Positions 17,875-33,201 of a DNA stretch of 62,048 nucleotides are shown piece after piece. The stretch covers positions 1-62,048 of the forward strand of contig CAYRXE010000002.1 of assembly GCA_964428205.1 (NCBI GenBank). The letters run 5' to 3'. The notes under the pieces are model-generated. The model made no database searches, had not been told where the DNA came from, and saw nothing but the letters and a program-made list of their open reading frames with translations. The position numbers and the translations under genes were made by a program. Source of the stretch: an uncultured Candidatus Peribacteria bacterium (GTDB taxonomy: Bacteria > Patescibacteriota > Gracilibacteria > Peribacterales > Peribacteraceae). Each line of letters begins with the position of its first letter. Positions within the stretch are counted from its first letter, which is position 1.

Positions 17875-17986
17875 ACGAGAAAAGGGGAGAGAAATGACAG
17901 ATAATGAACCGACAGAGCCTACCGTACGAGAATTTGGTTGGGAAGGGAACCTGGGTACTCCTTATATATGCAGGGCACGAACTTGG

Positions 17987-19663: not shown

Positions 19664-19686
19664 GGGGATCAGTGTATGATTCTTCT

Positions 19687-22176
19687 ATGCCTAAGGCCAA
19701 GACCGATTCGGCCGAAAACCCCAATCTTGAATCCCTGCGCAAGCGCATAGCCAAAGCGCCGCAGGATGCAGGTGTGTATCGCTGGAAGGACGCAGACGGA
19801 ACCATCCTCTATGTGGGGAAGGCGAAGAATCTTCGTAATCGTTTAAAACAGTACGTCACGGGACCCGCGAGTGCGCATGGTCCGTGGAAGCAGAGTTTTT
19901 TGCGTAAAGTGGCGGACTTCGAAATCACCGTTACGGGTAGCGAACTCGAAGCACTGATTTTGGAAACGAATATGATTAAAGAGAATCGACCCAAGTACAA
20001 CGTGCTCATGAAGGACGATAAGAACTACGTGTATGCACGCGTGACCATCAACGAAACATATCCGCGTGTGGAGTCGGTGCGTTTTTTGAATCTCAAAGAT
20101 GGTGCACTCTACTTTGGGCCCATCCTCAGCAACAGTGATCTGTGGGAAACACTCACTGCCATTAGAACCGTATTCCCGTTTCGCACTTGTAAAATGGATA
20201 TACAGACTGTTTCAGGGGAAAAGATGAATGATGAATTAAGAGAGATGAAAGACGAGAATATTCATCATTCATCACTCATCTCTCATCATTCTCCAGATAA
20301 AAAGATTATTCCCATTGATGTCGTTTGCTCTCACAGAGATAGGCCAACGCCGTGTTTGGATCATCACATTGGTAAATGCGGTGCCCCCTGTGTAGGTCTT
20401 GTGACCCCTGAAGAATACAAACGTGACGTGATCGATGGCGTCATCCGGTTTTTGAAAGGGGATTACGACAGTGTGAAAAATATTCTCACGGTGCGCATGC
20501 AACAGGCCGCTGCCGAGAAGAAGTTTGAACTCGCGGGAAAGTTACGAGATCAAATGACGGCGATGGATCGCTTACAAGGAAAACAAATCATCAGCGATAC
20601 CACAGGAGAAGATGCCGACGTGATTGCGATTGCCATCAAGAGTGGTCATGCACATGTGTGCGTATTGCGTCGCCGTGATGGACGCATAATTGGAGACGAA
20701 GAAGTGGCGCTCATGGGAGTCGCCGAAGAGCCAGAAGTCACACTGGGGGAATTCCTCGCGCAGTTCTACGCCGACCGCGAAATCCCACAGCAAATCATCC
20801 TCTCGCACGAACCACCGGATATGGCTGTTTTGGGCCAGTGGCTCAGCGAAAAGCGAGGTACGAAGGTGCAAATGCTCCTACCAGAACGAGGCACAAAATC
20901 GAAGCTTTTGCAGATGGCAGAAAAGAACGCACTCGAGAAGGCGCGTACGAGTGAACTCAAGTGGGAAGCAGAGGAGAGGAATACGAAAGGTGCTGTGCGC
21001 GAGCTTGCAGAAAAAATCCTTCCCAATTTTACAACAGCGGAGCATGGCGATGCGTCGAAGACGCCGCTGCATCGAATAGAATGCTATGACATCAGTCATA
21101 TGGGAGGGAACGAGACAGTCGCAAGTATGACCGTCGCACTCGATGGCAAGCTCGACAGCAGTCACTATCGCTCCTTTAACATGCGCACGGTCAAGGAGGG
21201 AGACATCGATGACTACCGATCATTGAGGGAGGCGCTGCTCCGTCGACTGCGACGTTTGCATGACGATCTCCCTGAGGAAGAAAAGAGGTGGAATGCGAAA
21301 GGTGTGACCTTTGGCAAAGCTCTCAAAAAAGATGCGGAGTTCATTGCCAACGTGGTGGCAGACAGCCCGGGAGACATAGGGTCCGACGGACTGGAGGATT
21401 CCGTATTTTGGCTCGCCAAAAAGGAAAACGAGATCATCGCCTGTGCGCGGTTTTACGAGTATCCCGGCAAGGTTCTCACGCTGCGCTCACTCTGGGTTTC
21501 TCCCGATCATCGTGGTGAAAAACTGGGGCTCATGTTGCTACGTCGCATGCTGAAGACGGTGAAGAAGGGCAAGGTGTACTTGCACTGCAAAGAAGCTCTT
21601 GGTGAGTACTACGGAGAGATTGGATTCCGCTACGTCATCAAACCGCCAAAACCGTTGCAGGAAAAAATGGATGCGTTTCACAAAGAACATCCCGAAGCCG
21701 AGCCAACGAGTATTTTCCTCTGGGAGGCGTTGCAGCATAAAGTGGATCCTTCTTTTAGTGCGCGTCCCGATCTCCTCGTGATCGACGGAGGCAAAGGGCA
21801 ACTGAGTACCATCGTCGAAGTCCTCAAAGAATTGAACTTGGATATTCCGGTGATTGGTCTCGCGAAGCGTGAAGAAGAAGTGTTCGTCCCCAATAGAAGT
21901 GATCCGATTCTTTTCGAGAAAGATAGCCCGGGAAAATTCCTGCTCATGCGACTCCGTGATGAGGCCCATAGGTTTGCGAATTTGAAGCGTGAGGGCAGGG
22001 GACTCGCCGATGCAAAGCGATCTGCATTGGACAATGTACCGGGTATAGGGCCCGAGACGCGCAAAGCGCTCATGCTTAAATTTATGACGCTCACGGGCAT
22101 TAAGAAGGCTCCGGATAGCGAACTTTTGAAGATTCTCACGCAGGGACAACTGGAGCAGGTAAGAAAACATCTGTGA
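19687..22176 (+). CDS. uvrC: Excinuclease ABC subunit C with two in-frame insertions (low-complexity insert and GNAT-like domain)
   Basis: Start at ATG 19687 (MPKAKTD...). GIY-YIG module (GVYRWKDADGTILYVGKAKNLRNRLKQY), UVR domain (FELAGKLRDQ), endonuclease core (ECYDISHMGG...LLVIDGGKGQL) and a C-terminal HhH (VPGIGPETRKALM). Confidence 0.9.
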   Translation: MPKAKTDSAENPNLESLRKRIAKAPQDAGVYRWKDADGTILYVGKAKNLRNRLKQYVTGPASAHGPWKQSFLRKVADFEITVTGSELEALILETNMIKENRPKYNVLMKDDKNYVYARVTINETYPRVESVRFLNLKDGALYFGPILSNSDLWETLTAIRTVFPFRTCKMDIQTVSGEKMNDELREMKDENIHHSSLISHHSPDKKIIPIDVVCSHRDRPTPCLDHHIGKCGAPCVGLVTPEEYKRDVIDGVIRFLKGDYDSVKNILTVRMQQAAAEKKFELAGKLRDQMTAMDRLQGKQIISDTTGEDADVIAIAIKSGHAHVCVLRRRDGRIIGDEEVALMGVAEEPEVTLGEFLAQFYADREIPQQIILSHEPPDMAVLGQWLSEKRGTKVQMLLPERGTKSKLLQMAEKNALEKARTSELKWEAEERNTKGAVRELAEKILPNFTTAEHGDASKTPLHRIECYDISHMGGNETVASMTVALDGKLDSSHYRSFNMRTVKEGDIDDYRSLREALLRRLRRLHDDLPEEEKRWNAKGVTFGKALKKDAEFIANVVADSPGDIGSDGLEDSVFWLAKKENEIIACARFYEYPGKVLTLRSLWVSPDHRGEKLGLMLLRRMLKTVKKGKVYLHCKEALGEYYGEIGFRYVIKPPKPLQEKMDAFHKEHPEAEPTSIFLWEALQHKVDPSFSARPDLLVIDGGKGQLSTIVEVLKELNLDIPVIGLAKREEEVFVPNRSDPILFEKDSPGKFLLMRLRDEAHRFANLKREGRGLADAKRSALDNVPGIGPETRKALMLKFMTLTGIKKAPDSELLKILTQGQLEQVRKHL
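20223..20284. repeat. Interleaved inverted repeats inside uvrC
   Basis: GATGAATGATGAAT (20223-20236) pairs with ATTCATCATTCATC (20260-20273). GAGAGATGA (20240-20248) pairs with TCATCTCTC (20276-20284). Confidence 0.8.
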
Positions 22177-22255
22177 GTTGCGTCATCTACAATGGCGCTG
22201 ATTTCTTTGCGCTTCGTTGTACGTTTCGTACAATGGAATCCTTCCCCTCGTTTCT

Positions 22256-22630
22256 ATGAAAAAGATCTCCCTCTTGCTCGGTGCACTCGGTGGTGCCATG
22301 GCCGGTTACGTCTTTAGTAATCAAAAACTTCGCAACGAACTTTCCGAAGCAAAAGATGCCGAAGCTGCCGCACAAATCTTGGGTAAGCACATGAAGTCTG
22401 ATGGAAAGAAGATCGGTAAAGAAGTGTGGGACTTTGTGCAGAGTGATGAAGTTCAGAAGAACATCAATCATGCGAAGAAGTACGCAGAGAAGCAGTTCAA
22501 GACTGCGAAGACAGAGGTGCAGAAGTACATGAAGAAAGAAGCCAAGCAGCTCAAGAGCGCGGCTAAGTCTGCAGCAAAGAAAGCGGTGAAGCGTGCAAAA
22601 ACGGGCTTTAAGGACAGGAAGGTGAGCTAA
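22256..22630 (+). CDS. YtxH-like protein
   Basis: ATG 22256. N-terminal anchor MKKISLLLGALGGAMAGYVFS followed by a Lys/Ala-rich helical region. Confidence 0.75.
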   Translation: MKKISLLLGALGGAMAGYVFSNQKLRNELSEAKDAEAAAQILGKHMKSDGKKIGKEVWDFVQSDEVQKNINHAKKYAEKQFKTAKTEVQKYMKKEAKQLKSAAKSAAKKAVKRAKTGFKDRKVS

Positions 22631-22659
22631 TTGACGTAATTGTTAATTAGTATTATAAG
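22631..22659 (+). promoter_or_regulatory. Sigma-70-like promoter upstream of rdgB
   Basis: TTGACG (22631-22636), 17-nt AT-rich spacer, TATAAG (22654-22659). A second TATAAT sits at 22660-22665. Confidence 0.4.
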
Positions 22660-22731
22660 TATAATTACTGAACATCGTTGATGTTGGTCTTTCACTCACT
22701 CCTGTTTCTTTTTTCACGAAGGAGAGTTGGT

Positions 22732-23421
22732 ATGTCCATCAGGCCTCTCAAGGGTCAGGTTGTTATCGCGACGACGAGTCCGGGAAAGCTCAAGGAGTAC
22801 GGTCGTTCCAGCGCTCGCCTCAAGGAATTGGGCGGGACTCTGGAGTTTGTACCGTTACCTCGCAAGCACTCGCTTCTCGAAATCCAAGGCGACAACCCGC
22901 AGCAGATCGCAGCCGCCAAGGCGTGGTACGCCGCCCTCAAGGTCTCACCGACGTTGGGAGCTGGCCTCTATCACTTGCCCATCGTAACCGAAGACGTCCT
23001 CCTTGCCATTCCGGCTTTAGGAGGATTGCCCGGTCCGTATTACGCGGACTGGCACGATCAACGCAAGATCTCCAACTCGCAGATTCTGCGGATGATGGAA
23101 GGTGTCGAAGACCGTCGTGTCTTCGCTACCGCGACTCTTGGGTACGCCAACCCTCGCGATGGGAAAATCTTCCTCTACACGGGAACGTGTGAAGGCAGAC
23201 TCCCTCTCGAGACTCGTGGCTCCGAAGAGTTCGGTTACGACAACATGTTCGAGATGGACGGGCTGACGTTTGCCGAGATGACTCCCGAGCAAAAAGATGC
23301 AGTGTCCTTCCGCGGACGGGTCATGCTTGCTGCGATGAAGGGCGAATGCACGGTTCACGACTGGACCGACATTCTCCCTGAGTACGTGCGCGTGCTGCTC
23401 CCGCAGTTACCGCGAGACTAG
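22732..23421 (+). CDS. rdgB: Non-canonical purine NTP pyrophosphatase (RdgB/HAM1 family)
   Basis: AGGAGA SD before ATG 22732. Motifs: VVIATTSPGKLKEY, TEDVLLAIPALGGLPGPYYADW, FGYDNMFEMDGLTFAEM and SFRGR. Confidence 0.85.
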   Translation: MSIRPLKGQVVIATTSPGKLKEYGRSSARLKELGGTLEFVPLPRKHSLLEIQGDNPQQIAAAKAWYAALKVSPTLGAGLYHLPIVTEDVLLAIPALGGLPGPYYADWHDQRKISNSQILRMMEGVEDRRVFATATLGYANPRDGKIFLYTGTCEGRLPLETRGSEEFGYDNMFEMDGLTFAEMTPEQKDAVSFRGRVMLAAMKGECTVHDWTDILPEYVRVLLPQLPRD

Positions 23422-23497
23422 GACATGTCGTGAATCACCTGTTCAGTGCCGTTTCCTTCATTGGAATCGGCATTTTAATATGCATTTATAGGCTGTT

Positions 23498-25339
23498 TTG
23501 AGCAAATCTTGCATATTGCAATTATTGTGTTTGAGTGTACTATTTTTCGGCATGCTTCCCGAGCTTAATCCAGCGTTGAGCAAGCCTTCCTACAGAGATC
23601 TGACTCTCGTCGATCAGTGGGGTGTGCCTTTGGAGGTAGAAGTACGTTTGCCCGAGGAAGAACACAAAGCGTTGCGAACGTCTCGCGTGGCTTTTCATAA
23701 TGCACTCGAAGCCGTTATTACAGGTGCGTTACATAAAAAAGATCAGGATCCTGCTGCTTTACTTCAAGCTCTCCACAATGCCGAGGCGCAGTACTGGCCA
23801 GACTTGTATAAGCATTTTGGTGATCCAAAGATGCAAGATCTCCTCGCGACTTTTTCGCGCTCGCAGTACGACGTGACTCCTCCGCAACATCCCACGAAGC
23901 ATAACCTTAAGAACAAACTTGGAATTTGGACATCCGGCATGCGCGATATTTGGCCAGGTACGAATGAGCAGGAGCGTGAATTCCGCAGGAAGCACCGTTC
24001 CTATTTCCACTTTCCAGAACGCGTTGCCTCCCTTGGTGGAGTGTTCGTCACGCCACCTGACTGTACAGAAGCTGAGCACGAAGAACTGCAGGACCACATG
24101 CGTAATGCAGATCCGTACTGGCGCACGCCTCCTCGTGTATTCCCAAGCACGACTGTGGGCGAAGCGCGTAAGTTATTTGCGTACTACGAAGAAGATTGGC
24201 CACTCATGGTCGAAACTCCTAACGGAGAAATCCTCTCAGTGTTTGATCAAAAAATGCTGCCAAATGACAACAAGCGGGATAACGAACCCGTCGAAAACTT
24301 CTGCGATGTCGGCAACTTCCATGAGGCACCTGCAGATATTTATCTTCCAGGTGCGTGCTTCGATTACTTAGAAGATAAGGGGCTTGATTACATGATTCGT
24401 ATTAAAGACGGAAAACCTTTGCTCATGACGAAGTCCATTGCTGCGTTTGCTGAGCTCTTGCCACCGTATCAAGCTGATGAAGGCTTGGGATACGTCACGT
24501 ACTTTGGCGTCAGTAACCCGGAAGCCACTATGAAGTTGGCCACAGGCCTGAAGCAAAAAGGAAAACTCGATGCCGCGATTGTCGACACGGCCCATGGTGC
24601 TTTGTTCCAGACAGAAGTTGTGCTGCAGAAACTGCGTGATCTTCTTCCGGACATCCCTCTCGGTGTTGGTGCTGTGAACGATCCTGTCACGCTCCGTCGC
24701 TACCAGCGCATTGCAGACTTCATCAAAGGACCTATTGGTTCTGGTGGAGTGTGTAATACGTATCACACAGGCGTGCGTCGTAAAGATGCCTACGTAGCCA
24801 TGTTGCTCTCTGCTGCAAGTGCAGGAGATGTGCCGCTACTCATCGATGGATTGGGTGGTGGTCGTGATGATCACAAGCACTACCGCGAACAACAGCTGGA
24901 TGACACCTCAGAGTTCACCATCAGTATGGCTTTCCCATGGGTCATTGGTCGTCAGGCAGGAGGTGCACACATTGCTCGTGTCGAATCTGGTAATCCTTTG
25001 GAGGAGTGGAATGGAGTGACTGGAAAATTTGGAAGTGGAGAGGCAAGTTCCAATGCAAACAAGCGCCGTAGAGGAGCGAGAGACAAGCGCTCCAGAGAAG
25101 ATCGTCGCGCCGAAGCAATCCGCACGACGTATTCCGAAGGTGTGAACGACCGCTTCTATCCGCTGCGTAATCCTAAGAACTTGGCGGGTATGTACTACCT
25201 CTTCTCCGCCCGTTTGCGCTCAGCCATGAGTTACACGCTCGGCCTCGTTCCTCGTTTGCCAAATGGTGAATTGCCACCGCCTGGTAAGCACATGCAGATC
25301 TACCAAGAGAGAGCGATTGTTGAGCATCAGGGATCCTAA
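23498..25339 (+). CDS. Divergent IMPDH/GMP-reductase-like TIM-barrel protein with unrelated 300-aa N-terminal region
   Basis: aa 296-613 follow the IMPDH barrel order: AAIVDTAHG, GVGAVND, the catalytic-loop look-alike IGSGGVCNT (Cys codon 24752-24754), PLLIDGLGGG, GKFGSGEAS, YSEGVNDRFYP and LFSARLRSAMSY. The start is either TTG 23498 or ATG 23552. Confidence 0.8.
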   Translation: MSKSCILQLLCLSVLFFGMLPELNPALSKPSYRDLTLVDQWGVPLEVEVRLPEEEHKALRTSRVAFHNALEAVITGALHKKDQDPAALLQALHNAEAQYWPDLYKHFGDPKMQDLLATFSRSQYDVTPPQHPTKHNLKNKLGIWTSGMRDIWPGTNEQEREFRRKHRSYFHFPERVASLGGVFVTPPDCTEAEHEELQDHMRNADPYWRTPPRVFPSTTVGEARKLFAYYEEDWPLMVETPNGEILSVFDQKMLPNDNKRDNEPVENFCDVGNFHEAPADIYLPGACFDYLEDKGLDYMIRIKDGKPLLMTKSIAAFAELLPPYQADEGLGYVTYFGVSNPEATMKLATGLKQKGKLDAAIVDTAHGALFQTEVVLQKLRDLLPDIPLGVGAVNDPVTLRRYQRIADFIKGPIGSGGVCNTYHTGVRRKDAYVAMLLSAASAGDVPLLIDGLGGGRDDHKHYREQQLDDTSEFTISMAFPWVIGRQAGGAHIARVESGNPLEEWNGVTGKFGSGEASSNANKRRRGARDKRSREDRRAEAIRTTYSEGVNDRFYPLRNPKNLAGMYYLFSARLRSAMSYTLGLVPRLPNGELPPPGKHMQIYQERAIVEHQGS

Positions 25340-25354
25340 CCTTTCTCCTAGCCC

Positions 25355-27649
25355 ATGCACGTCCCTCATTCAGTTGTCGTATCGGGCGATGGATACCTCG
25401 ACCAATTTGATGTGCGGGCAGGTGTCTACGATGCAGAAAAGAAAATCTGGCGTGTTCCCGTGCAGATCCATACACCTATCCCCAATAAAACTGCTCTCGC
25501 CCAGCATCTTAGAGCAGGGGATGCCTCGCCGAGGATCAAAGAAACATTGAGCTTCACCAATCGCAGTATTTGCGCGCGTCTGGGTTTCGAAATCGAAAAC
25601 CCGCAATTTGGCGACTCTATCTACATTGATGACCTGCACATGATGGAGGCCACGGGCGTGTTCTACCCAGGCGAGGATATAGACGGCAAAGCCGAAGAAA
25701 GTTCGCTGCCACGCTTTATTGAAAACTGGATGACGAACAACCGCATCCACGTAGGCCGTTTGTTTGCCATCCCCGAAGGGCTCAAGCCATTCGATGCCGC
25801 TCGTGTGAACGAAGAGATGAGGGCGAACAGGCTGAGGTTGCATCACGATTCCGTGGTGATGGAAGACGGTACCATCCTCGTTCCATCGCTCGATTATCAG
25901 TACTACATCATGCATCACCTCATGCCGGAGGATGCTCTTCATAGTGCCCTCATTGGTTCGGGTCGTGGAGGCAGTGATGTGTTACAGCCGGTGGTGCGCG
26001 GCGAAATGCGCGATATCCCGCCGGATACCATGCGTGTGTCTGCGACACAGTTCTCGCTCCTGCGTCACATGGGCATCCTCAACAAGCAGGTGTATGACCT
26101 CCTGAGCCGGAAAGTCGAACCTCGCCTCAAACACGGTAATTCCCGTGTGTGGGACGGAGGAAAAACCTCGGGTAAGTACCCGCGTCAGCTCGAGTTTATC
26201 AACACATCCGACACCGCTGTGTCGCAAAAGGGCATTGCTGCCAGCCTGAACATGTACCCCACCGAAGGCACGCGCATGTTGCGTAGGATGGTCGGTTCTG
26301 CACCCTCCAAAGTAGTGGAAGAAGGTGTGACGTTGGATCACTTCTTAGAAGCGAAGAAAAATCAGGACATGCTGCGTCAGCTCCACACACATAGTCAGCG
26401 CCCAGGATCGTGGGGAATGCTCATGGGGCCGGGAGGCGTGCGCACACTACGCAACTACAAACACGATGTGCATCAGGAACGTGCTCTTATTACCGGTATC
26501 GATACCTTCCTCCAGGACGGTGTGCCGGCAGACTCGCACCAAGGCTCTGAGGGTTTGCAGGCATGCTTGAAGATGTTGAGCGATCCGCGCCAGCGCTGCA
26601 TGCTCTTTTGCAAAGAGATGCCTTCGGCAGCCACGGTGAGCCAAATGATGGCCAGAGGAGTGCGCACGATTGTGACCGATAACCTCAGTAAGACCGCCAG
26701 CAAGCTCTACATGAGCGCTACTCAGGTGGCGCAATACAAAGAGCTCTCTGCGCAGGGTTTGCAGCTATATGTTCTTACAGAAGAAATGATCCGCAAGCAG
26801 TACTACAACATGCTCGTGCGTCTGGAGGCACTCGACCGCATGAAGAAGTGCGATACACGCTTAGTTGGTTACGCCGCGAGCATGGATGGTGTCGATAAGA
26901 TCATGGACCAAGGTCATTTTCCAGAATTCCTAGAGCAGTTTTTGAGCGAACATCCCAATGCCGCTCTCGCAACAGGCGCTTCGAAGAGCGGGGGAATGCT
27001 CTACATGAACCGCATTGCTCAGGCGCTCAAGATGCTCACGATCGGTATCGCCAACGAAATCCCGGGGCAAGAAGCAGGGGACACCACGCTCGATGCCATC
27101 ATGTTCTTTGTCGAAGACGGCATCATCACGCGTCAGGAGCTCATGAATTACATCGGTACCTTGGCTCTGCAGAACATTGGTGCAGAGGGGTCTGATTTTG
27201 AAGGTGCTCTGGAACGCATGATGCTTAAGCTCGGTCGCTGCTCCATGTCACCACTCTTCATGGCCGATCCTGCTGGCCTTGGACCAAATGGTGCGCACTA
27301 CTGGCAACCAAATATGAATCTGCAGCAGCAGCATGCAGCCGAATTGCCCGAAGAGTTATTCGGTCTTGATCCTTCTGGGAAAAAGCGTCGTCTCTCTCGT
27401 TCTCCGTATGTGAAGGACATGTGCCACTTGATTACCGATTACCGCGAGGTGGCTAGGATTTACAGTGAATTCGAAAAGGATCCTATGGCCTACTGGCAAA
27501 ACGAAAAAGAAGGACGATTCGTTCCAAAGAACATCCTCCTCGCAGCACAGGCACGCGTGCTCCGTAACGCCGAGTACACAGGACTCCCCATGCCGGCTCA
27601 TTGGAAGAAGCTTATTGAGGAGGGCGCAATCGAAAAGCTGGCTTCCTAA
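25355..27649 (+). CDS. Large orphan protein with PRTase-like motif and C-terminal LOG/SLOG-like Rossmann domain
   Basis: 764 aa. aa 414-445 (CMLFCKEMPSAATVSQMMARGVRTIVTD) resemble a degenerate type I PRTase PRPP loop. aa 500-705 follow LOG-family order (LVGYAAS, ATGASKSGGMLYMN, TIGIANEIP..E, ITRQELM, NIGAEGSDFEGALE, LITDYREV). It lies 15 nt after the previous gene. Confidence 0.8.
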   Translation: MHVPHSVVVSGDGYLDQFDVRAGVYDAEKKIWRVPVQIHTPIPNKTALAQHLRAGDASPRIKETLSFTNRSICARLGFEIENPQFGDSIYIDDLHMMEATGVFYPGEDIDGKAEESSLPRFIENWMTNNRIHVGRLFAIPEGLKPFDAARVNEEMRANRLRLHHDSVVMEDGTILVPSLDYQYYIMHHLMPEDALHSALIGSGRGGSDVLQPVVRGEMRDIPPDTMRVSATQFSLLRHMGILNKQVYDLLSRKVEPRLKHGNSRVWDGGKTSGKYPRQLEFINTSDTAVSQKGIAASLNMYPTEGTRMLRRMVGSAPSKVVEEGVTLDHFLEAKKNQDMLRQLHTHSQRPGSWGMLMGPGGVRTLRNYKHDVHQERALITGIDTFLQDGVPADSHQGSEGLQACLKMLSDPRQRCMLFCKEMPSAATVSQMMARGVRTIVTDNLSKTASKLYMSATQVAQYKELSAQGLQLYVLTEEMIRKQYYNMLVRLEALDRMKKCDTRLVGYAASMDGVDKIMDQGHFPEFLEQFLSEHPNAALATGASKSGGMLYMNRIAQALKMLTIGIANEIPGQEAGDTTLDAIMFFVEDGIITRQELMNYIGTLALQNIGAEGSDFEGALERMMLKLGRCSMSPLFMADPAGLGPNGAHYWQPNMNLQQQHAAELPEELFGLDPSGKKRRLSRSPYVKDMCHLITDYREVARIYSEFEKDPMAYWQNEKEGRFVPKNILLAAQARVLRNAEYTGLPMPAHWKKLIEEGAIEKLAS

Positions 27650-27689
27650 TCGTTGCTTTTATTTCTTTTATCTTTACCTTCCTATCCAT

Positions 27690-27884
27690 ATGGAAACTGC
27701 AAAACCTATCGATCAGATGGATGCTGAGGAACTCAAGGCTCTTCTCGAAGAAGTTGCTCCCAAGGGCAGGATGCTCAATGGAGATGAAGTCGAGCGCATT
27801 GTCTTCCCGGCTCAAGAGCGCTTGAAGCTGCTCGGTGAAGGAACGAGCGAGTCCGTGAAGGCCACTCTGCTCCCTTCTAACTAA
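27690..27884 (+). CDS. Small (64 aa) acidic hypothetical protein
   Basis: ATG 27690, 40 nt after the preceding stop and on the same strand. Helical-looking sequence METAKPIDQMDAEELKALLEEVAPKG... Confidence 0.45.
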   Translation: METAKPIDQMDAEELKALLEEVAPKGRMLNGDEVERIVFPAQERLKLLGEGTSESVKATLLPSN

Positions 27885-27920
27885 ATCAGTACAAAATTCC
27901 TGCTTAAACAGGGCGTTTGA

Positions 27921-29669
<1,749 letters not shown>

Positions 29670-29808
29670 GGTTCTGGATTGCTCAGGATCCTTCTTCTTG
29701 GCTTTCTAGAGCCATATTCGAAGTGTGAAGAGAAATAGACACATCGGATGATCTGCTCGGGTGCATCACTGCCTTGGATCATGGGGACATTTCTTCCCCC
29801 TAATTTTT

Positions 29809-30234
29809 ATGGCAACTGCCACTGCAGAAAAGCCTTCGCGCTTCGCGCGAAAATACGAGCTCGAGAATCGCACACTCGAACTCGCAACATCCGTACGTCA
29901 GTTCGTGCGCAAGCTCCCTCGCTACATGCACATGAGTGAGGATGTCGTTCAGCTCCTCCGTGCATCCGGTGCCATGGGCGCTGCATACATCGAAGTGAAC
30001 GAAGCTAACGGTCGCAAGGCTGCGCTTGGTCACATTCGCGAGTGCATTCGCCAGGCCAAGGAGACGCACTTTTGGCTTCGCGTGCTCGAGGTTGGTACGA
30101 GCGAGCGCTTGGTTGCCGAAAAGCAGAAGCTCACCGACGAGGCCTTCGCGTTGCTCCGCATCTTCTGCGCCATTCTTGGTAAGGTTGGCACGCGTAAGCA
30201 GGCAGAAGAGCCTAAAGAAGCTGTCACTGCGTAA
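29809..30234 (+). CDS. Four-helix-bundle protein (23S rRNA IVS protein / Avd-like family), divergent
   Basis: ATG 29809, 141 aa. The helix pattern resembles the family: YELENRTLELATSVRQFVRKLP ... LLRASGAMGAAYIEVNEA ... ECIRQAKETHFWLRVL. Confidence 0.7.
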   Translation: MATATAEKPSRFARKYELENRTLELATSVRQFVRKLPRYMHMSEDVVQLLRASGAMGAAYIEVNEANGRKAALGHIRECIRQAKETHFWLRVLEVGTSERLVAEKQKLTDEAFALLRIFCAILGKVGTRKQAEEPKEAVTA

Positions 30235-30245
30235 GGCATCAAATG

Positions 30246-30277
30246 AAAAAGCGCTTCGATTGCTCGAGGCGCTTTTT
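30246..30277. terminator. Bidirectional hairpin terminator between the four-helix gene and pyrK
   Basis: AAAAAGCGCTTCG-ATTGCT-CGAGGCGCTTTTT, with an A-run and a T-run on either side. Confidence 0.5.
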
Positions 30278-30432
30278 CGGGATTCTGGGCGAGCGATTAG
30301 CAACCGCAAGCGCCTGAGCATCCATCACCACCACGGATCATAAATTTGGTGGGAAAGAAATAAACGTGAACAGTGTAAACGGTGAAGGGCTGTTTGTCTA
30401 GCACTCGGTGTTGACGAGTGATAACCGGGAAA

Positions 30433-31290
30433 TTACTTCCCAAATTCGTGTTTACGGCCCAATTCATCGCGGTGGTACTTGCCGAACTCTTCAATGAGCA
30501 AGCACTTGTCGTTCTTTACCACCGGTCCATCGGTACAGATCCTGATTCCTAGGGGATCGACTGTGCAGTTGCCGCAAATGCCGTACCCGCACTTCATGTA
30601 GCGCTCCAGAGAGAGCTGGCTTGGGACCTGATACTTGTGCGTGATCTCCGAGACGCGCTTCAACATCATCTCCGGGCCACAGGCGAAGACTTGGTCGACA
30701 GGAAGACAGTCATGCTTCTTGCCGTGCTCTTCGCGCGGGCAGCTTTCGAGCATCTTATCCAGTACATCTACGTTGAATCCTTTGTATCCCACGGAGCCAT
30801 CATTGGTCGCAATGTGCAGTGATACGTGTGGCAGTGCTTCCATCTCTTTGAGATACAACAAGTGCTCCTTACTGCGTGCTCCCACAATCACTTCTAGTGT
30901 GCAGCCATGACCAACAGTTTCCTTGGCGACGAAGTACATAGGCGCTGCTCCGTATCCACCGGCGACGAGCACAATGTGCTGACCCGGTTCCCACTCGTAG
31001 CACGTGCCAAAGGGGCCACGGAGTCCCACAAGATCTCCCACTTGGCACTTGGCGAGTTCGTTTGTCATATCTCCCACCGCAAAGAACGTGATCTTGGTCT
31101 CGGCACCATCGTCGTAGGCGACGCTCATGGGGTTTTCATCTACTCCTGGGAGCCACACCATCACGAACTGACCTGGCTTTGCTCCCAAAGATCCATCGAA
31201 CGTAAACGTGCGGACCATTTCGGTTTCCTGCTTAATATCTTTGATCCTGTACGTCTTGGGGAGCCTGCTTTGGAGGGGGATGGTGGACAT
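30433..31290 (-). CDS. pyrK: Dihydroorotate dehydrogenase B electron-transfer subunit
   Basis: 285 aa with an FAD/NAD-binding fold and the C-terminal 2Fe-2S motif CGYGICGNCTVD. Its start overlaps the pyrD stop (TAATG). Confidence 0.9.
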   Translation of the reverse strand: MSTIPLQSRLPKTYRIKDIKQETEMVRTFTFDGSLGAKPGQFVMVWLPGVDENPMSVAYDDGAETKITFFAVGDMTNELAKCQVGDLVGLRGPFGTCYEWEPGQHIVLVAGGYGAAPMYFVAKETVGHGCTLEVIVGARSKEHLLYLKEMEALPHVSLHIATNDGSVGYKGFNVDVLDKMLESCPREEHGKKHDCLPVDQVFACGPEMMLKRVSEITHKYQVPSQLSLERYMKCGYGICGNCTVDPLGIRICTDGPVVKNDKCLLIEEFGKYHRDELGRKHEFGK

Positions 31291-32264
31291 TAGGATTTGG
31301 CGTGAGTCATAGAAGTACCTTTGATACCGCGGTTGAGGAGTTCCTTGTGCATGCCTCCGATCAAATCACTCACATCCCAGACACCTTCGTTGGTGCACCA
31401 GTACTGCATCTCGTCCGTGACTTTTTTAAAGACATCCAATCCGCGATCGCCAACGGCCGTACCGATTCCCACGAGCGTTGCTCCTGCGAGCATCATCTCA
31501 ATGGCGTCTTCACCGGTGTACACACCGCCTGTTCCGATGATCGGCACCTGACTGTGGATGGCTTCGTACACCTCCGCGACACAACGTACGGCAATAGGCT
31601 TAAGTGCCGGACCCGAGAGACCTCCTTTGTGTGCAGCCAAGATTGGCATGCGGCTACGCAGATCGATCGCCATGCCTGGTCCTACGGTATTGATGGCGCA
31701 GATGCCATCGGCACCGGCATCCACGCAAGCCTTGGCGACCTCACCAATGTTTGGCACGTTTGGCGTGAGCTTTGCAAACACGGGGATGCCATTTGCCACC
31801 TTCTTTACGGCCTTGATGATGGCGCCTGCTTCTTTGCCGTCTTCTGCAAAGAGCTTCCCACGGAGCTTGAGGAAGGTGGGCGTCGACATGTTCACTTCGA
31901 AGAAGTCCGGCTTGAGTGGTGCAATGGCTGCTGCAACGGTGGCGAATTCCTTCGCTTCCAATCCAATGATGTTCGCAATCAGGGGAACCGGCTTGTCTTT
32001 GTTATATGCCGAAATCTCCTGCACGGCTTTTTCGAGTCCGGCATCCGGTACGCCAACAGCGTTGAGCGTCCAGTGCTCCGTCGAAATGATTGTGGGGTTC
32101 TTGTTGCCCTGATGTTCCACCGGCCACAGAGACTTTGTGGTGATTCCGCCTGCTCCGTTTTCTGCAATCAACTTCCAGCTCGTCGCGGTGATGCCCATGA
32201 TGCCCGAAGCGAGCACCGTGGGGTTCTCGAAGGTGACGCCGTGGACGGTCTGGCTCAGGTTCAT
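31290..32264 (-). CDS. pyrD: Dihydroorotate dehydrogenase B catalytic subunit
   Basis: 324 aa. ITTKSL, NAVGVPDAGL, NMSTPT, INTVGPGMAIDL, GGLSGPALKPIALR-like and IGTGGV motifs of class 1B DHODH. Confidence 0.9.
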   Translation of the reverse strand: MNLSQTVHGVTFENPTVLASGIMGITATSWKLIAENGAGGITTKSLWPVEHQGNKNPTIISTEHWTLNAVGVPDAGLEKAVQEISAYNKDKPVPLIANIIGLEAKEFATVAAAIAPLKPDFFEVNMSTPTFLKLRGKLFAEDGKEAGAIIKAVKKVANGIPVFAKLTPNVPNIGEVAKACVDAGADGICAINTVGPGMAIDLRSRMPILAAHKGGLSGPALKPIAVRCVAEVYEAIHSQVPIIGTGGVYTGEDAIEMMLAGATLVGIGTAVGDRGLDVFKKVTDEMQYWCTNEGVWDVSDLIGGMHKELLNRGIKGTSMTHAKS

Positions 32265-32271
32265 CGAGAGC

Positions 32272-32299
32272 AGCTTAGAGCTTTTAGCTTTTAGCTTCT
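32272..32299. repeat. Tandem heptamer repeat (AGCTTNN x4)
   Basis: AGCTTAG AGCTTTT AGCTTTT AGCTTCT, directly upstream of pyrD. AGCTTAGAGCTTTT matches, as an inverted repeat at 13 of 14 positions, AAAAGCTATAAGCT at 32785-32798. Confidence 0.8.
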
Positions 32300-32420
32300 A
32301 GAGGTTCTTTGAGCGCAAGGAACTTACTTCTATCGTAGACTCAGCCTTAGAAAGGCACCCATAAATTTTGAGGTACATACCTGGGTTTTCCTACAAAAAG
32401 ATCCTTGAGACAATTTTTAC

Positions 32421-32795
32421 ATGATTAATTCTTATCGCGACCTTTTGGTCTGGCAAAAAGCAATTGAGTTAGCCAAAGCAACGTATGACTTAACCGCCAA
32501 ATTTCCTTCAGAAGAAAAATTTGGATTAGTTTCACAAATGCGCAGAGCAGCTGTTTCTATACCATCAAATATTGCTGAAGGCAGATGCAGAGGAACTCGA
32601 AAAGACTTTTTACAGTTTCTCAGGATTGCGTATGGATCCGGAGCAGAACTAGAAACGCAGATGCACATTGCAGAACGACTGGGTTTTTCTAAAGATTTTT
32701 CCACTTCTTCCATAAGTGCACATATGACAAGCGTTATGAAAATGCTGAATTCTATGATTCATTCTTTATCTAAATCTGAAAGCCAAAAGCTATAA
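32421..32795 (+). CDS. Four-helix-bundle protein (23S rRNA intervening-sequence protein family)
   Basis: YRDLLVWQKAIELAKATYDLTAKFPSEEKFGLVSQMRRAAVSIPSNIAEG...FLRIAYGSGAELETQ is the canonical family pattern. The gene is visibly more AT-rich than its neighbours. Confidence 0.85.
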   Translation: MINSYRDLLVWQKAIELAKATYDLTAKFPSEEKFGLVSQMRRAAVSIPSNIAEGRCRGTRKDFLQFLRIAYGSGAELETQMHIAERLGFSKDFSTSSISAHMTSVMKMLNSMIHSLSKSESQKL

Positions 32796-32806
32796 GCTTT
32801 CGCGCC

Positions 32807-33151: not shown

Positions 33152-33201
33152 TTCCCTTATAGTATAGCAGAAAGGGCTGTTTCCTGCTACAGTATCGCGC
33201 C

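What the first reader, a model, noticed from the sequence alone, without database searches (positions are those of the whole stretch)
23498..27884. Pair of large, highly divergent nucleotide-enzyme-like proteins (IMPDH-like barrel, then PRTase-like + LOG-like) between rdgB and pyrG
Seen directly, gene 1 (613 aa):
- Its C-terminal 320 aa follow the order of IMPDH/GMP reductase barrel motifs: AAIVDTAHG, GVGAVND, a Cys loop IGSGGVCNT (compare GPGS(I/V)CTT), LLIDGLGGG, FGSGEAS, SEGVNDRFYP and ARLRSAMSY.
- Every motif is strongly diverged, the flap is replaced by a K/R-rich insert, and there are 300 unrelated N-terminal residues.

Seen directly, gene 2 (764 aa, 15 nt downstream):
- aa 500-705 follow the LOG (TIGR00730-type) Rossmann layout, with the PGGxGTxxE motif degenerated to IGAEGSDFE.
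- aa 414-445 look like a degenerate type I phosphoribosyltransferase PRPP loop (MLFCKEMPSAATV...ARGVRTIV).
- About 400 N-terminal residues match nothing I know.
- A 64-aa acidic ORF follows.

Context: the block is co-directional with the ITPase gene rdgB upstream and pyrG downstream.

Inference: IMPDH-like, PRTase-like and LOG-like folds all act on the base or the N-glycosidic bond of nucleoside monophosphates. The pair could therefore be a novel nucleotide salvage, editing or signalling module. SLOG/LOG-type domains are also used as nucleotide sensors in conflict systems. The domain calls rest on motif order read by eye.
Basis: partly seen in the sequence, partly recalled or inferred. Interest (0 to 1): 0.7.

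Follow-up and report, generated by a model that had tools for sequence, protein, structure and literature searches.

The report
Hypervariable IMPDH-like and LOG-nucleosidase gene pair
Two adjacent genes in a probable Peregrinibacteria (candidate phyla radiation) genome encode a very diverged GMP-reductase/IMP-dehydrogenase-type enzyme and a large undescribed fusion of dUTPase/dCTP-deaminase-like domains with a LOG-type nucleotide nucleosidase, and this pair has been swapped for very different versions between otherwise near-identical genomes.

Summary
**Verdict: the finding is real and only partly read correctly.**

- **Gene 1 (23498-25339):** a full-length but extremely diverged, CBS-containing member of the IMPDH/GMP reductase family, closest to the GuaB1 type. 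Its N-terminal 300 residues are not unrelated. They hold the first barrel strand, a lineage-specific insert and the Bateman-domain region.
- **Gene 2 (25355-27649):** a member of an unannotated family (95 clusters at 50% identity, mostly 740-830 aa).
  - Residues ~496-705 are a type-II LOG-like phosphoribohydrolase domain. The catalytic Arg593 and Glu616 are invariant.
  - The N-terminal ~300 residues are not orphan sequence. A high-confidence AlphaFold model matches dCTP deaminase/dUTPase folds, with a Dcd-like motif and a conserved Glu280.
  - The proposed PRTase loop is not supported.
- **Co-occurrence:** the two genes are neighbours in all nine other loci found for the window's clade. The wider gene 2 family lacks gene 1 and instead always sits just upstream of pyrG in Peregrinibacteria.
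- **New observation:** in a relative whose flanking proteins are 77-98% identical, the block rdgB-gene1-gene2 is replaced, exactly at gene borders, by versions only 21% and 34% identical.
- **Likely role:** a regulated nucleotide-pool module combining a GMP-reductase-like enzyme with a gated NMP nucleosidase. The cause of the hypervariability is unexplained.

The parts
22639..27646 (+). Variable cassette: rdgB + gene 1 + gene 2. It has no nucleotide similarity to the close relative L094, although both flanks align.
   Evidence: blastn: window 16769-22638 aligns to L094 2-6220, and window 27647-35350 to L094 10251-18252, at 74-88% nt identity. Nothing aligns in between. Flanking proteins are 77-98% identical; gene 1 is 21% and gene 2 34% identical.
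22678..23421 (+). rdgB/Ham1-type non-canonical purine NTP pyrophosphatase (probable start ATG near 22732).
   Evidence: Pfam Ham1p_like E 2.5e-33; NCBIfam TIGR00042 E 5e-28. Present upstream of gene 1 in L001, L002, L004, L093 but absent in L094, L092, L008.
23498..25339 (+). Gene 1: strongly diverged CBS-containing IMPDH/GMP reductase family protein of GuaB1 type (613 aa from TTG; more likely 595 aa from the ATG at 23552).
   Evidence: NCBIfam GuaB1 E 1e-12 (aa 174-454 to model positions 62-338 of 479). PDB 1vrd E 7e-7 and 7oy9 (mycobacterial GMP reductase) E 3e-5. Aligns over its full length to the orthologue in L008, which scores E 5e-118 to GuaB1.
24116..24487 (+). Gene 1 residues ~207-330: diverged Bateman (CBS pair) region.
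   Evidence: Aligned to the CBS region (residues 101-200) of T. maritima IMPDH 1vrd. Orthologues in L092, L094, L008 and L093 carry weak or faint Pfam CBS hits.
24503..25336 (+). Gene 1 residues 336-613: catalytic barrel core, with Cys419 (24752-24754), Thr421, Asp450, Glu547-Gly548.
   Evidence: These residues are invariant in seven orthologues that share only 18-42% identity with the window protein (A9). Codons checked.
25355..25738 (+). Gene 2 residues 1-128: beta-rich domain carrying the motif TNRSICARLG (family GRSGxxxxG). This resembles the Dcd GRSSLARLG motif and dUTPase motif 2.
   Evidence: hhalign of the 67-sequence sub-alignment against a dCTP deaminase alignment: E 7.8e-5, probability 62%, 20 columns. 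Ser71 is nearly invariant.
25739..26269 (+). Gene 2 residues 129-305: dCTP deaminase/dUTPase-like beta-barrel. It carries H260..D267..G273..R277-x-x-E280..N283, and Glu280 is at 26192-26194.
   Evidence: Foldseek on the full-length model (query ranges are not reported): 2qlp_A (M. tuberculosis Dcd:dUTPase) E 9.4e-5, TM 0.64; 4dhk_A E 2.5e-4; viral dCTP deaminase/dUTPases. Placement at residues 129-305 rests on hhalign to E. coli Dcd: E 0.022, pairing RQLEFIN with VLEFYN, and colinear over Dcd 1-166 at E 0.08. E280 is kept in 64 of 68 and R277 in 63 of 68 family members.
26270..26839 (+). Gene 2 residues 306-495: alpha/beta linker region of unknown fold.
   Evidence: No Pfam hit even at E 10 for five members. 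hhalign to PyrE gives E 0.12, the same as unrelated segments. Modelled with high confidence, but no separate fold match could be obtained.
26840..27469 (+). Gene 2 residues 496-705: type-II LOG-like phosphoribohydrolase (NMP nucleosidase) domain. Arg593 is at 27131-27133 and Glu616 at 27200-27202; the motif is IGAEGSDFE.
   Evidence: Family profile against PDB: LOG 9us2 E 4.6e-16, 5wq3 1.7e-14, 1wek 1.3e-10. Foldseek: 3qua, 7w2i, 5wq3 with TM 0.7-0.8. R593, E616, G612 and M548 are invariant in 68 sequences. The R-to-E spacing of 23 equals Arg155-Glu178 of Cg1261 (PMC5379747).
27470..27649 (+). Gene 2 residues 706-764 plus stop codon: conserved helical C-terminal tail (DPxxYW ... TG.P.P).
   Evidence: Conserved across the family (P710 in 67 of 68). 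Only chance-level matches otherwise (LigA, E 0.2).
27690..27884 (+). 64-aa acidic ORF (pI 4.6), outside the variable cassette. Probably not part of the module.
   Evidence: 86% identical in L094. The small ORFs at the same position in L001, L004, L092 and L093 are unrelated.
27942..29669 (+). pyrG (CTP synthase; probable start ATG at 28020). It is the conserved downstream neighbour of the whole gene 2 family in Peregrinibacteria.
   Evidence: Pfam CTP_synth_N E 3e-116. pyrG follows the gene 2 homologue in L001, L004, L008, L012-15, L017-20, L028-30, L092-94.

Best explanation
The block is a lineage-specific nucleotide-pool module of Peregrinibacteria-type (candidate phyla radiation) bacteria.

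**Gene 1.** It is a strongly diverged but probably active member of the IMPDH/GMP reductase family, of the CBS-containing GuaB1 (GMP reductase) type. Such enzymes use an active-site cysteine to attack C2 of a purine nucleoside 5'-monophosphate and are regulated through a Bateman domain.

**Gene 2.** It is a multidomain nucleoside-5'-monophosphate nucleosidase.
- Its type-II LOG-like domain uses the conserved Arg/Glu pair to hydrolyse the N-glycosidic bond, giving free base plus ribose 5-phosphate.
- This core is fused to one or two dCTP-deaminase/dUTPase-like beta-barrels. These bind, and possibly deaminate or dephosphorylate, a (deoxy)pyrimidine nucleotide.
- In logic it resembles E. coli PpnN, where nucleotide-binding flanking domains gate a LOG-type core.

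**Together.** With the ITP/XTP pyrophosphatase RdgB upstream and CTP synthase downstream, the products would interconvert and dispose of surplus or aberrant nucleotides.

**Shown versus inferred.**
- Shown: the folds, the conserved catalytic residues, the gene order and the cassette replacement.
- Inferred: substrates, activity of the Dcd-like module and the regulatory logic.
For: **Gene 1**
- GuaB1 profile E 1e-12. PDB IMPDH and GMP reductase matches include the Cys loop.
- There is a continuous series of orthologues up to one scoring E 5e-118 to GuaB1.
- C419, T421, D450 and E547 are invariant across seven orthologues sharing only 18-42% identity with the window protein.

**Gene 2**
- The family profile hits LOG structures at E 4.6e-16. 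28 of 45 members hit PF03641.
- The AlphaFold model has pLDDT 94.6. Foldseek finds LOG at TM 0.7-0.8, PpnN, and dCTP deaminase/dUTPase (E 9e-5, TM 0.64).
- R593 and E616 are invariant in 68 of 68 sequences; E280 is kept in 64 of 68.
- Dcd motif matches come from hhalign.

**Context**
- The IMPDH-family gene lies upstream in all nine other loci found for the clade. Two of them add adenosine deaminase and a CBS-less IMPDH in between.
- pyrG lies downstream throughout Peregrinibacteria.
- The 15-nt gap between gene 1 and gene 2 holds no terminator-like site.

**Literature**
- GuaB1 is a CBS-containing GMP reductase (PMC9790621).
- LOG catalysis uses an Arg/Glu pair, and type II LOGs are hexamers (PMC5379747).
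- PpnN is a LOG-type core gated by nucleotide-binding flanking domains, with GMP as preferred substrate (PMC6717881).
Against: - No activity data exist.
- Gene 1 falls below the curated cut-offs of every IMPDH/GMPR model (Pfam 24.1 bits against 25.6; NCBIfam 48 against 549). It carries extra inserts near the phosphate-binding loop, and the flap alignment is unreliable, so its substrate could differ from GMP or IMP.
- In the window's clade the LOG motifs are degenerate: GAEGS instead of GGxGT, and GASKSGGM instead of GGGPGxM.
- The Dcd-like assignment rests on a predicted structure plus weak profile matches (E 8e-5 over 20 columns; 0.02-0.08 over the domain).
- The pyrG adjacency may simply be inherited gene order within one lineage.
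- Ordinary housekeeping enzymes are not expected to be replaced by 21-34% identical versions between close relatives.
Confidence: 0.5

Rival explanations
1. The cassette is under conflict-driven selection. It would be a nucleotide-depleting or nucleotide-cleansing immune or counter-defence module, directed against phages or used in the symbiont-host relationship. It sits at a fixed chromosomal site, and its alleles are exchanged and diversified.
For: - The cassette is replaced exactly at gene borders between genomes whose flanks are 77-98% identical in protein: window vs L094, and L004 vs L093.
- The gene 1, gene 2 and pyrG relationships are incongruent.
- dCTP deaminases and LOG/SLOG-type or other nucleosidases are known defence effectors (own knowledge; reviews found).
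Against: - Neither protein, nor two other family members, hits PADLOC.
- The same architecture occupies the same site, next to pyrG, in every Peregrinibacteria locus seen. Patchy defence islands behave differently.
- There are no sensor, abortive-infection or mobile-element genes nearby and no border repeats.
- Family members in Desulfobulbaceae and Opitutaceae lie among housekeeping genes.
Confidence: 0.2
2. Gene 2 is chiefly the lineage's dCTP deaminase or bifunctional dCTP deaminase:dUTPase. It would make dUMP for thymidylate synthesis from the CTP-derived pool. The LOG domain would serve as an oligomerisation or regulatory scaffold rather than as a nucleosidase.
For: - The best non-LOG fold match is the bifunctional Dcd:dUTPase of M. 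tuberculosis.
- Residues equivalent to Dcd Asp128 and Glu138 (D267, E280) are conserved.
- The gene always precedes pyrG.
- Type II LOGs form trimers of dimers (PMC5379747). By inference, this symmetry would suit a trimeric dUTPase-like enzyme.
Against: - The Dcd motifs are split between two separate beta domains and match weakly.
- The LOG catalytic Arg and Glu are the most invariant residues of the whole protein. That argues for LOG catalysis, not a scaffold role.
- No Pfam DCD or dUTPase model detects any member.
Confidence: 0.12
3. One reading: a three-fold module (IMPDH-like barrel, type I PRTase-like domain and LOG-like domain) that acts on the base or glycosidic bond of NMPs and uses PRPP.
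For: - The IMPDH-like and LOG-like parts are confirmed.
- hhalign does place aa 411-424 on the PRPP loop of PyrE, but only at E 0.12.
Against: - E 0.12 in a one-to-one comparison is also reached by an unrelated segment of the same protein.
- No PF00156 hit for any member, even at E 10.
- No PRTase among the top 50 Foldseek matches.
- The acidic pair and the TG motif are not conserved in the wider family.
- The segment is only ~85 residues, too short for a PRTase core.
Confidence: 0.04
4. The two proteins in the window's clade are decaying or non-catalytic relatives (pseudoenzymes). They would be kept for a structural or regulatory role, for example binding nucleotides or PyrG, which would explain the fast sequence drift.
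For: - Motifs are degenerate in the window clade.
- Gene 1 is below all curated thresholds.
- Pairwise identities are very low even between close relatives.
Against: - Reading frames of 570-800 codons are intact in every locus.
- The catalytic residues of both folds are exactly the ones that stay invariant.
- Drift in place cannot produce 21-34% identity while the flanking proteins stay 77-98% identical.
Confidence: 0.1

Closest known systems
PpnN (YgdH) of E. coli, a (p)ppGpp-activated nucleotide 5'-monophosphate nucleosidase (PDB 6gfl, 6gfm; PMC6717881)
   Same: - A LOG-type Rossmann core is embedded in a larger protein whose flanking domains bind nucleotides.
- It is recovered by Foldseek at E ~2e-5.
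- It acts on the guanylate pool, as the neighbouring GMP-reductase-like gene would.
   Different: - The flanking domains are not PAG1/PAG2 (DUF4478/DUF3412): there are no Pfam hits, and superposition outside the core is poor (TM 0.34, rmsd 13-15 Å).
- Gene 2 is 764 aa against 454 aa for PpnN.
- The N-terminal module is dUTPase/Dcd-like.
- The LOG core is closer to type II LOGs.
Type II LOG phosphoribohydrolases (Cg1261 5wq3, TT1465 1wek, S. coelicolor 5zi9; PMC5379747)
   Same: - These are the best sequence-profile matches (E 1e-14 to 1e-10).
- The fold is the same.
- The catalytic Arg and Glu are the same, with identical 23-residue spacing.
   Different: - Known type II LOGs are ~210-260 aa single-domain proteins.
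- Here the domain is the C-terminal third of a 764-aa protein.
- In the window's clade the PGGxGTxxE motif reads IGAEGSDFE.
GuaB1, the CBS-containing GMP reductase of mycobacteria (PDB 7oy9; PMC9790621, PMC13249884)
   Same: - It is the best-scoring curated model for gene 1 and for its less diverged orthologues.
- It has the same barrel plus Bateman-domain layout and a catalytic Cys loop.
   Different: - GuaB1 was described as specific to Actinobacteria (PMC9790621). Here the gene is in a candidate-phyla-radiation lineage.
- All orthologues carry a ~70-residue insert after the first strand.
- The window protein has further inserts (for example GGGRDDHKHYREQQLDD) and scores only 48 bits against a 549-bit cut-off.
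dCTP deaminase and bifunctional dCTP deaminase:dUTPase (E. coli Dcd; M. tuberculosis 2qlp; B. thailandensis 4dhk)
   Same: - Beta-barrel fold match (E 9e-5, TM 0.64).
- A motif equivalent to HxxAxxIDPGxxGxxxLExxN with the catalytic Glu, and a GRSSxxRxG-like motif.
   Different: - The two motifs lie ~190 residues apart, in two separate beta domains. This suggests a tandem duplication with complementary motif retention.
- That arrangement is reminiscent of monomeric herpesvirus dUTPases (own knowledge). Weak Foldseek matches to herpesvirus dUTPase-related proteins appear.
- No sequence model of the family detects it.

Membership tests
IMPDH/GMP reductase family (Pfam PF00478; NCBIfam GuaB1 TIGR01303/NF005869) | Profile match above the curated threshold | tested here: not met
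   Pfam 24.1 bits against a gathering score of 25.6. NCBIfam GuaB1 47.9 bits against 549. The E-values are nevertheless significant (1e-12, 2e-5), and the orthologue in L008 scores 395 bits. Homology is therefore secure, but equivalog membership is not.
IMPDH/GMP reductase family | Active-site loop with the catalytic Cys, followed by Thr (GxGxGSxCTT) | tested here: met
   IGSGGVCNT aligns to GPGSICTT of 1vrd and to the loop of 7oy9. C419 and T421 are invariant in seven orthologues.
IMPDH/GMP reductase family | Ribose- and phosphate-binding Asp-Gly (IADGG), GxGS and xEG motifs in order | tested here: met
   D450-G451, G514 (SGEAS) and E547-G548 are invariant in A9. The order matches the 1vrd alignment as far as it reaches.
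IMPDH proper (as opposed to GMP reductase) | Arg-Tyr dyad of the mobile flap that activates water | tested here: inconclusive
   In A6/A9 the RY of the L008 orthologue (KRRYD) falls opposite RRRGA (window), RNERP and KAKM. The flap is too diverged for a reliable alignment.
GuaB1-type GMP reductase | Bateman (CBS pair) domain inserted in the barrel | tested here: inconclusive
   Residues 207-330 align to the CBS region of 1vrd. Pfam CBS is weak in orthologues and absent for the window protein.
GuaB1-type GMP reductase | [quoted passage not shown] | not testable with these tools
   Requires an enzyme assay.
LOG family (Pfam PF03641, TIGR00730) | Profile match | tested here: met
   The window protein alone has no hit. 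The family profile against solved LOGs gives E 4.6e-16 to 1e-10. 28 of 45 family members hit PF03641, best E 2.9e-10.
LOG family | Rossmann-like LOG fold | tested here: met
   Foldseek of the pLDDT 94.6 model: 3qua, 7w2i, 3sbx, 5wq3 with TM 0.70-0.80 and probability 1.00. A phage LOG protein matches at E 5e-7.
LOG family | PGGxGTxxE motif with catalytic Glu, and the catalytic Arg 23 residues upstream | tested here: met
   R593 and E616 are invariant in 68 of 68 sequences, with spacing 23 as in Arg155-Glu178 of Cg1261. In the window the motif is degenerate (IGAEGSDFE). The wider family has GGxGTLEE.
LOG family | Phosphoribohydrolase activity on a nucleoside 5'-monophosphate | not testable with these tools
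   Requires an enzyme assay.
dCTP deaminase/dUTPase superfamily | Beta-barrel (dUTPase-like) fold | tested here: met
   Foldseek: 2qlp_A E 9.4e-5, TM 0.64, 184 columns; 4dhk_A E 2.5e-4; viral dCTP deaminase/dUTPases E 5e-4 to 7e-3 with probability ~1. This rests on a predicted structure.
dCTP deaminase/dUTPase superfamily | Sequence-profile relationship and family motifs | tested here: inconclusive
   - hhalign: GRSS motif E 7.8e-5 over 20 columns; catalytic-Glu motif E 0.022; whole domain E 0.08.
- No Pfam or PDB sequence hit.
- The Dcd alignment used was of low diversity.
dCTP deaminase/dUTPase superfamily | Homotrimeric active sites closed by a C-terminal arm; dCTP or dUTP turnover | not testable with these tools
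   Requires multimer modelling with coordinates, or experiments.
Type I phosphoribosyltransferase (Pfam PF00156) | PRPP-binding loop within a five-stranded PRTase core | tested here: not met
   No Pfam hit at E 10 for residues 300-505 of five members or for 45 full-length members. hhalign to E. coli PyrE gives E 0.12, equal to noise. PRTases are absent from the top 50 Foldseek matches.
PpnN-type nucleosidase | PAG1 (DUF4478) and PAG2 (DUF3412) domains flanking the core | tested here: not met
   No Pfam hit for these domains in any member. PpnN superposes only on the core (TM 0.34).
Known anti-phage defence systems (PADLOC-DB 2.0) | Match to any defence protein model | tested here: not met
   No hit at E 0.01 for rdgB, gene 1, gene 2, the small ORFs or two other family members.

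The most novel reading that the evidence does not exclude
The cassette would be a new kind of hypervariable nucleotide-enzyme module, built on a previously undescribed protein architecture: tandem dUTPase/dCTP-deaminase-like barrels fused to a type II LOG nucleosidase. Its alleles, together with a co-travelling GMP-reductase-like gene and rdgB, would be exchanged between Peregrinibacteria under diversifying selection. That would mean core nucleotide-pool enzymes serve as a front line in phage or host conflict in candidate-phyla-radiation bacteria.
Probability: 0.2. Interest if true: 0.8.

Novelty: new variant of a known kind. Interest (0 to 1): 0.62.

Why it matters
- **An unannotated enzyme family.** Gene 2 stands for a family of ~95 sequence clusters. 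No Pfam, NCBIfam or PDB sequence search recognises the window protein. The family can now be read as a LOG-type nucleotide nucleosidase fused to dUTPase/dCTP-deaminase-like domains, and I found no description of this combination in the searched literature.
- **A wider range for GuaB1-type enzymes.** Gene 1 extends the CBS-containing GuaB1-type GMP reductase lineage, described as specific to Actinobacteria, into candidate-phyla-radiation bacteria, and to an extreme of divergence that still keeps the catalytic residues.
- **Relevance to a reduced metabolism.** These organisms have reduced metabolism and depend heavily on nucleotide handling. A dedicated, regulated nucleotide-degrading module next to pyrG bears on how they balance or scavenge nucleotides.
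- **Unexpected allele replacement.** Core-looking metabolic genes are replaced by 21-34% identical versions between near-identical genomes. If selection drives this, it points to nucleotide metabolism as a target of biological conflict in this group.

Tried and rejected
- **Single-sequence searches of gene 2** against Pfam, NCBIfam and PDB sequences gave nothing. Only family profiles worked.
- **First AlphaFold run** with three sequences was useless (pLDDT 37.5). It was replaced by a 68-sequence run.
- **Word-indexed homologue searches** returned only 2-3 relatives per gene. The exhaustive profile search was needed.
- **GTDB scan with the close-clade alignment** found nothing, and the 45-sequence alignment was too diverse for that tool. 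The scan with the large clade worked.
- **Sequence-level detection of the Dcd-like domain** failed with Pfam at E 10 and with a sub-alignment profile against PDB sequences.
- **The last homologue search, for E. coli Dcd,** listed only relatives of 85% identity or more. The resulting Dcd profile was therefore shallow.
- **PRTase hypothesis:** tested and rejected.
- **PpnN-type flanking domains:** rejected.
- **Defence-system membership:** no PADLOC hit.
- **Riboswitch or other RNA element** in 19000-31000: none in Rfam at E 0.1.
- **Repeats at the cassette borders:** none. There is no GC anomaly either.
- **The 64-aa ORF as a conserved third component:** rejected, because the small ORFs at that position are unrelated in most loci.
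- **Neighbourhoods of family members outside Peregrinibacteria:** uninformative.

Full report
**1. What is in the sequence**

The + strand carries the following genes, in order:

| Gene | Coordinates | Note |
|---|---|---|
| uvrC | 19483-22176 | has an inserted GNAT domain |
| Lys-rich ORF | 22217-22630 | 137 aa |
| Ham1/RdgB gene | 22678-23421 | |
| Gene 1 | 23498-25339 | 613 aa |
| Gene 2 | 25355-27649 | 764 aa, 15 nt downstream of gene 1 |
| Acidic ORF | 27690-27884 | 64 aa, pI 4.6 |
| pyrG | 27942-29669 | |

- pyrK and pyrD follow on the opposite strand.
- No terminator-like site lies between gene 1 and gene 2.
- No Rfam family matches between 19000 and 31000.
- GC content is even across the region.
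- The public gene call for gene 1 is 595 aa, which starts at the ATG at 23552. Orthologues favour that start.

**2. Gene 1**

*Profile matches.* All fall below curated cut-offs but are statistically significant.
- Pfam IMPDH: E 2e-5, residues 339-451.
- NCBIfam GuaB1: E 1e-12, residues 174-454 on model positions 62-338.
- PDB: T. maritima IMPDH 1vrd (E 7e-7, residues 207-451) and the mycobacterial GMP reductase GuaB1 7oy9 (E 3e-5, residues 173-446). IGSGGVCNT lies on the GPGSICTT Cys loop.

*Orthologues.* Genes at the same position in related contigs form a graded series.
- Those in L008, L094 and L092 are fairly ordinary GuaB1-like proteins. L008 scores E 5e-118 to GuaB1 and has GIGPGSMCTTR, ADGG, GMAS and AEGIS.
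- L093 is intermediate.
- The window, L004 and L001 proteins are the diverged extreme.

*The N-terminal 300 residues are part of the family fold.* The multiple alignment shows:
- YRDLTLV corresponds to the canonical N-terminal TYDDVFLVP strand.
- A ~70-residue insert, shared by the whole series, follows it.
- SRSQYDV corresponds to SRDEVD.
- ERVASLGGVFVTPPD corresponds to the strand before the Bateman domain.
- Residues ~207-330 align to the CBS region.

*Conserved residues.* S120, R121, H366, G391, K410, G416, C419, T421, D450, G451, G488, G514, E547 and G548 are invariant across the seven proteins. These share only 18-42% identity with the window protein, and some pairs are barely alignable by BLAST. 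Retention of the catalytic Cys/Thr loop and the ribose/phosphate contacts argues for a working enzyme of the covalent-Cys type.

*IMPDH or GMP reductase.* GuaB1 was shown to be an NADPH-dependent GMP reductase with a CBS domain and was described as specific to Actinobacteria (PMC9790621). Whether the window protein reduces GMP, oxidises IMP or does something else cannot be decided. The flap that would hold the IMPDH Arg-Tyr dyad is too diverged to align reliably.

**3. Gene 2, the LOG part**

*Single sequence and close relatives.*
- The single sequence has no Pfam, NCBIfam or PDB-sequence match.
- The word-indexed search found only two relatives. JGI names one of them 'predicted Rossmann-fold nucleotide-binding protein'.

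*The family.*
- An exhaustive profile search found 95 cluster representatives at E ≤ 1e-3. Most are 740-830 aa and match over most of their length.
- A 68-sequence alignment has the consensus HGKGPGxM ... RQxxMD ... GGxGTLEE.
- Its profile hits solved LOG enzymes: 9us2 at E 4.6e-16, type II LOG 5wq3 at 1.7e-14, 5zi9 at 6e-11 and 1wek at 1.3e-10. Type I LOGs score around 1e-5.
- 28 of 45 members hit PF03641 on their own.

*Structure.*
- With this alignment AlphaFold gives a confident model: pLDDT 94.6, pTM 0.92.
- The earlier three-sequence attempt had failed.
- Foldseek places LOG structures first (TM 0.70-0.80), followed by PpnN.

*Catalytic residues.*
- M548, R593, G612 and E616 are invariant in all 68 sequences.
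- R593 and E616 align with the catalytic Arg and Glu of LOGs. They have the same 23-residue spacing as Arg155 and Glu178 of Cg1261 (PMC5379747).

**4. Gene 2, the rest of the protein**

*Fold evidence for a dUTPase/Dcd-like module.*
- The same Foldseek run also returned the bifunctional dCTP deaminase:dUTPase of M. tuberculosis (2qlp_A, E 9.4e-5, TM 0.64 over 184 columns) and a Burkholderia dCTP deaminase (4dhk_A, E 2.5e-4).
- The viral library returned a dCTP deaminase/dUTPase (E 5e-4) and several dUTPases with probability near 1. It also gave weaker matches to herpesvirus dUTPase-related proteins.

*Sequence evidence.*
- hhalign of the residue 120-310 sub-alignment against E. coli Dcd pairs HLAARxLDGxRTTG..RQLELxN with [22 protein letters not shown] (E 0.022). 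This puts Glu280 on the catalytic Glu138 of Dcd.
- Against a (shallow) Dcd family alignment, residues 141-290 are colinear with Dcd 1-166 (E 0.08).
- Separately, residues 62-81 (TNRSICARLG; family GRSGxxxxG) match the Dcd GRSSLARLG motif at E 7.8e-5.
- E280 is kept in 64 of 68 members, R277 in 63, D267 in 53, and S71 in at least 90%.

*Reading.* My inference is two tandem dUTPase-like beta domains (residues ~1-128 and ~129-305) that keep complementary halves of the Dcd/dUTPase motif set.

*Middle region and the PRTase call.*
- Residues 306-495 and the C-terminal tail have no recognisable relatives.
- The proposed PRPP loop (residues 414-445) is not supported. There is no PF00156 hit. hhalign to PyrE gives E 0.12, the same value an unrelated segment reaches. 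No PRTase appears in the listed fold matches, and the acidic/TG signature is not conserved in the wider family.

**5. Distribution and gene context**

*Taxonomy.*
- A scan of GTDB species genomes with the largest clade of the family returned MAGs labelled Candidatus Peribacteria, Peribacterales or Peregrinibacteria.
- It also returned Desulfobulbaceae and Desulfurivibrionaceae. More distant hits came from Opitutaceae/Verrucomicrobiota, one Saccharibacteria MAG and one Bradyrhizobium.
- The window's pyrG is 70-79% identical to that of the Peribacteria MAGs. The window therefore probably comes from that group.

*The conserved neighbour is pyrG.* In Peregrinibacteria loci the family gene lies immediately upstream of pyrG, and uvrC lies a few kb further upstream.

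*The IMPDH-like partner is clade-specific.* An IMPDH-family gene precedes the family gene only in the window's own clade, but there it does so in every locus found.

| Locus or contig | Gene order upstream of the gene 2 homologue |
|---|---|
| L001, L002/L003, L004/L005, L093 | rdgB - gene 1 |
| L092, L094 | gene 1, without rdgB |
| L008 and the JGI contig of P0003 | GuaB1-like - adenosine deaminase - CBS-less IMPDH |

The partnership is nevertheless specific to one clade, not to the whole family. Outside Peregrinibacteria the neighbours are unrelated housekeeping genes.

**6. The unexpected part: cassette replacement**

*Window versus L094.* L094 is a close relative of the window.
- blastn aligns window 16769-22638 with L094 2-6220, and window 27647-35350 with L094 10251-18252, at 74-88% nucleotide identity.
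- Protein identities of flanking genes: H+-PPase 94%, TPR protein 77%, UvrC 78%, the 137-aa ORF 89%, the 64-aa ORF 86%, PyrG 98%, PyrK 97%, PyrD 96%.
- Between these flanks nothing aligns at the DNA level. The window has rdgB, gene 1 and gene 2 (5.0 kb). L094 has a more canonical GuaB1-like gene and a gene 2 homologue (4.0 kb, no rdgB).
- Gene 1 is 21% identical and gene 2 34% identical.
- The right border coincides with the stop codon of gene 2. The left border lies just after the end of the upstream ORF.

*A second pair.* L004 and L093 behave alike: PyrG 93% and UvrC 76%, but gene 2 47%, RdgB 43%, and gene 1 barely alignable.

*Incongruent relationships.*

| Window gene | Closest locus | Identity |
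|---|---|---|
| gene 2 | L001 | 60% |
| gene 1 | L004 | 42% |
| pyrG | L094 | 98% |

*Other observations.*
- Across 105 locus pairs, gene 2 identity correlates poorly with pyrG identity (r = 0.28).
- There are no border repeats, no compositional anomaly and no PADLOC hit.
- In-place drift cannot give 21-34% identity next to 98%. The block must have been exchanged among lineages, or be under strong diversifying pressure, while its catalytic residues stay fixed.
- I have no established explanation for this (notebook).

**7. Mechanism proposed**

*Shown.*
- Gene 1 is a homologue of IMPDH/GMPR enzymes with an intact Cys active site.
- Gene 2 carries an intact LOG catalytic pair and a dUTPase/Dcd-like module with a conserved acidic pocket.
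- The two genes travel together in one clade, with rdgB or with adenosine deaminase plus IMPDH.
- The whole family sits next to pyrG.

*Inferred.*
- Gene 2 is an NMP nucleosidase that releases base and ribose 5-phosphate.
- Its N-terminal nucleotide-binding module either feeds it, for example by (d)CTP deamination or dephosphorylation, or gates it allosterically. PAG domains gate PpnN in this way in response to (p)ppGpp (PMC6717881).
- Gene 1 converts GMP to IMP or a related step. RdgB returns ITP/XTP to the monophosphate pool.
- Together they would trim or recycle purine and pyrimidine nucleotide pools.

*Probabilities.* About 0.5 for this reading, 0.2 for a conflict-driven role, and the rest for the alternatives listed.

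**8. Comparison with known systems, and novelty**

- The closest known systems are PpnN, type II LOGs, GuaB1 GMP reductase and bifunctional Dcd:dUTPase. Each shares one element with this module, and none shares the architecture.
- Literature searches for a LOG plus dCTP-deaminase combination found only general defence-system papers.
- I rate the finding as a new variant of known kinds: a new multidomain architecture built from known folds, and an extreme GuaB1-type variant. The allele-replacement pattern is unexplained and raises its interest.

Noticed in passing
window 19483-22176 (+): The uvrC gene carries a GNAT acetyltransferase domain (Pfam Acetyltransf_1, residues 637-704, E 5e-10) inserted between the two halves of its C-terminal RNase H-like endonuclease domain. 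The same insertion is listed for the orthologues in L004, L005, L093 and L094.
   Followed up: partly
window 27690-27884 (+): A 64-aa acidic ORF (pI 4.6) is 86% identical in the close relative L094 and lies outside the replaced cassette. The small ORFs at the same position in L001, L004, L092 and L093 are unrelated in sequence.
   Followed up: yes
window 32421-32795 (+): A 124-aa protein of the 23S rRNA intervening-sequence protein family (PF05635, E 1e-37; weak bAvd-like match) lies next to pyrD. The DNA around it (32265-32807) does not align to L094 by blastn, although L094 has a gene of the same family there.
   Followed up: partly
window 23498-23551: The first 18 codons of gene 1, counted from the TTG, are probably not translated. 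The public gene model and the orthologues start at the ATG at 23552. Likewise rdgB probably starts near 22732 and pyrG at 28020.
   Followed up: yes
L008 344-4297 and the JGI contig of P0003: In one sub-clade, the gene 2 homologue is preceded by a GuaB1-like gene, an adenosine deaminase gene and a CBS-less canonical IMPDH gene. This is a fuller purine-interconversion set than in the window.
   Followed up: partly
L023-L027, L032-L090: Members of the gene 2 family also occur in Desulfobulbaceae/Desulfurivibrionaceae. More distant members occur in Opitutaceae and other Verrucomicrobiota and in one Bradyrhizobium. Their neighbours are unrelated; in Bradyrhizobium a PRTase-domain gene lies two genes away (L032 2578-3585).
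   Followed up: partly
window 5368-10524 (-), 41396-44848 (-), 56598-60578 (-): Three very large ORFs (1718, 1150 and 1326 aa) were seen in the ORF list but not examined.
   Followed up: no
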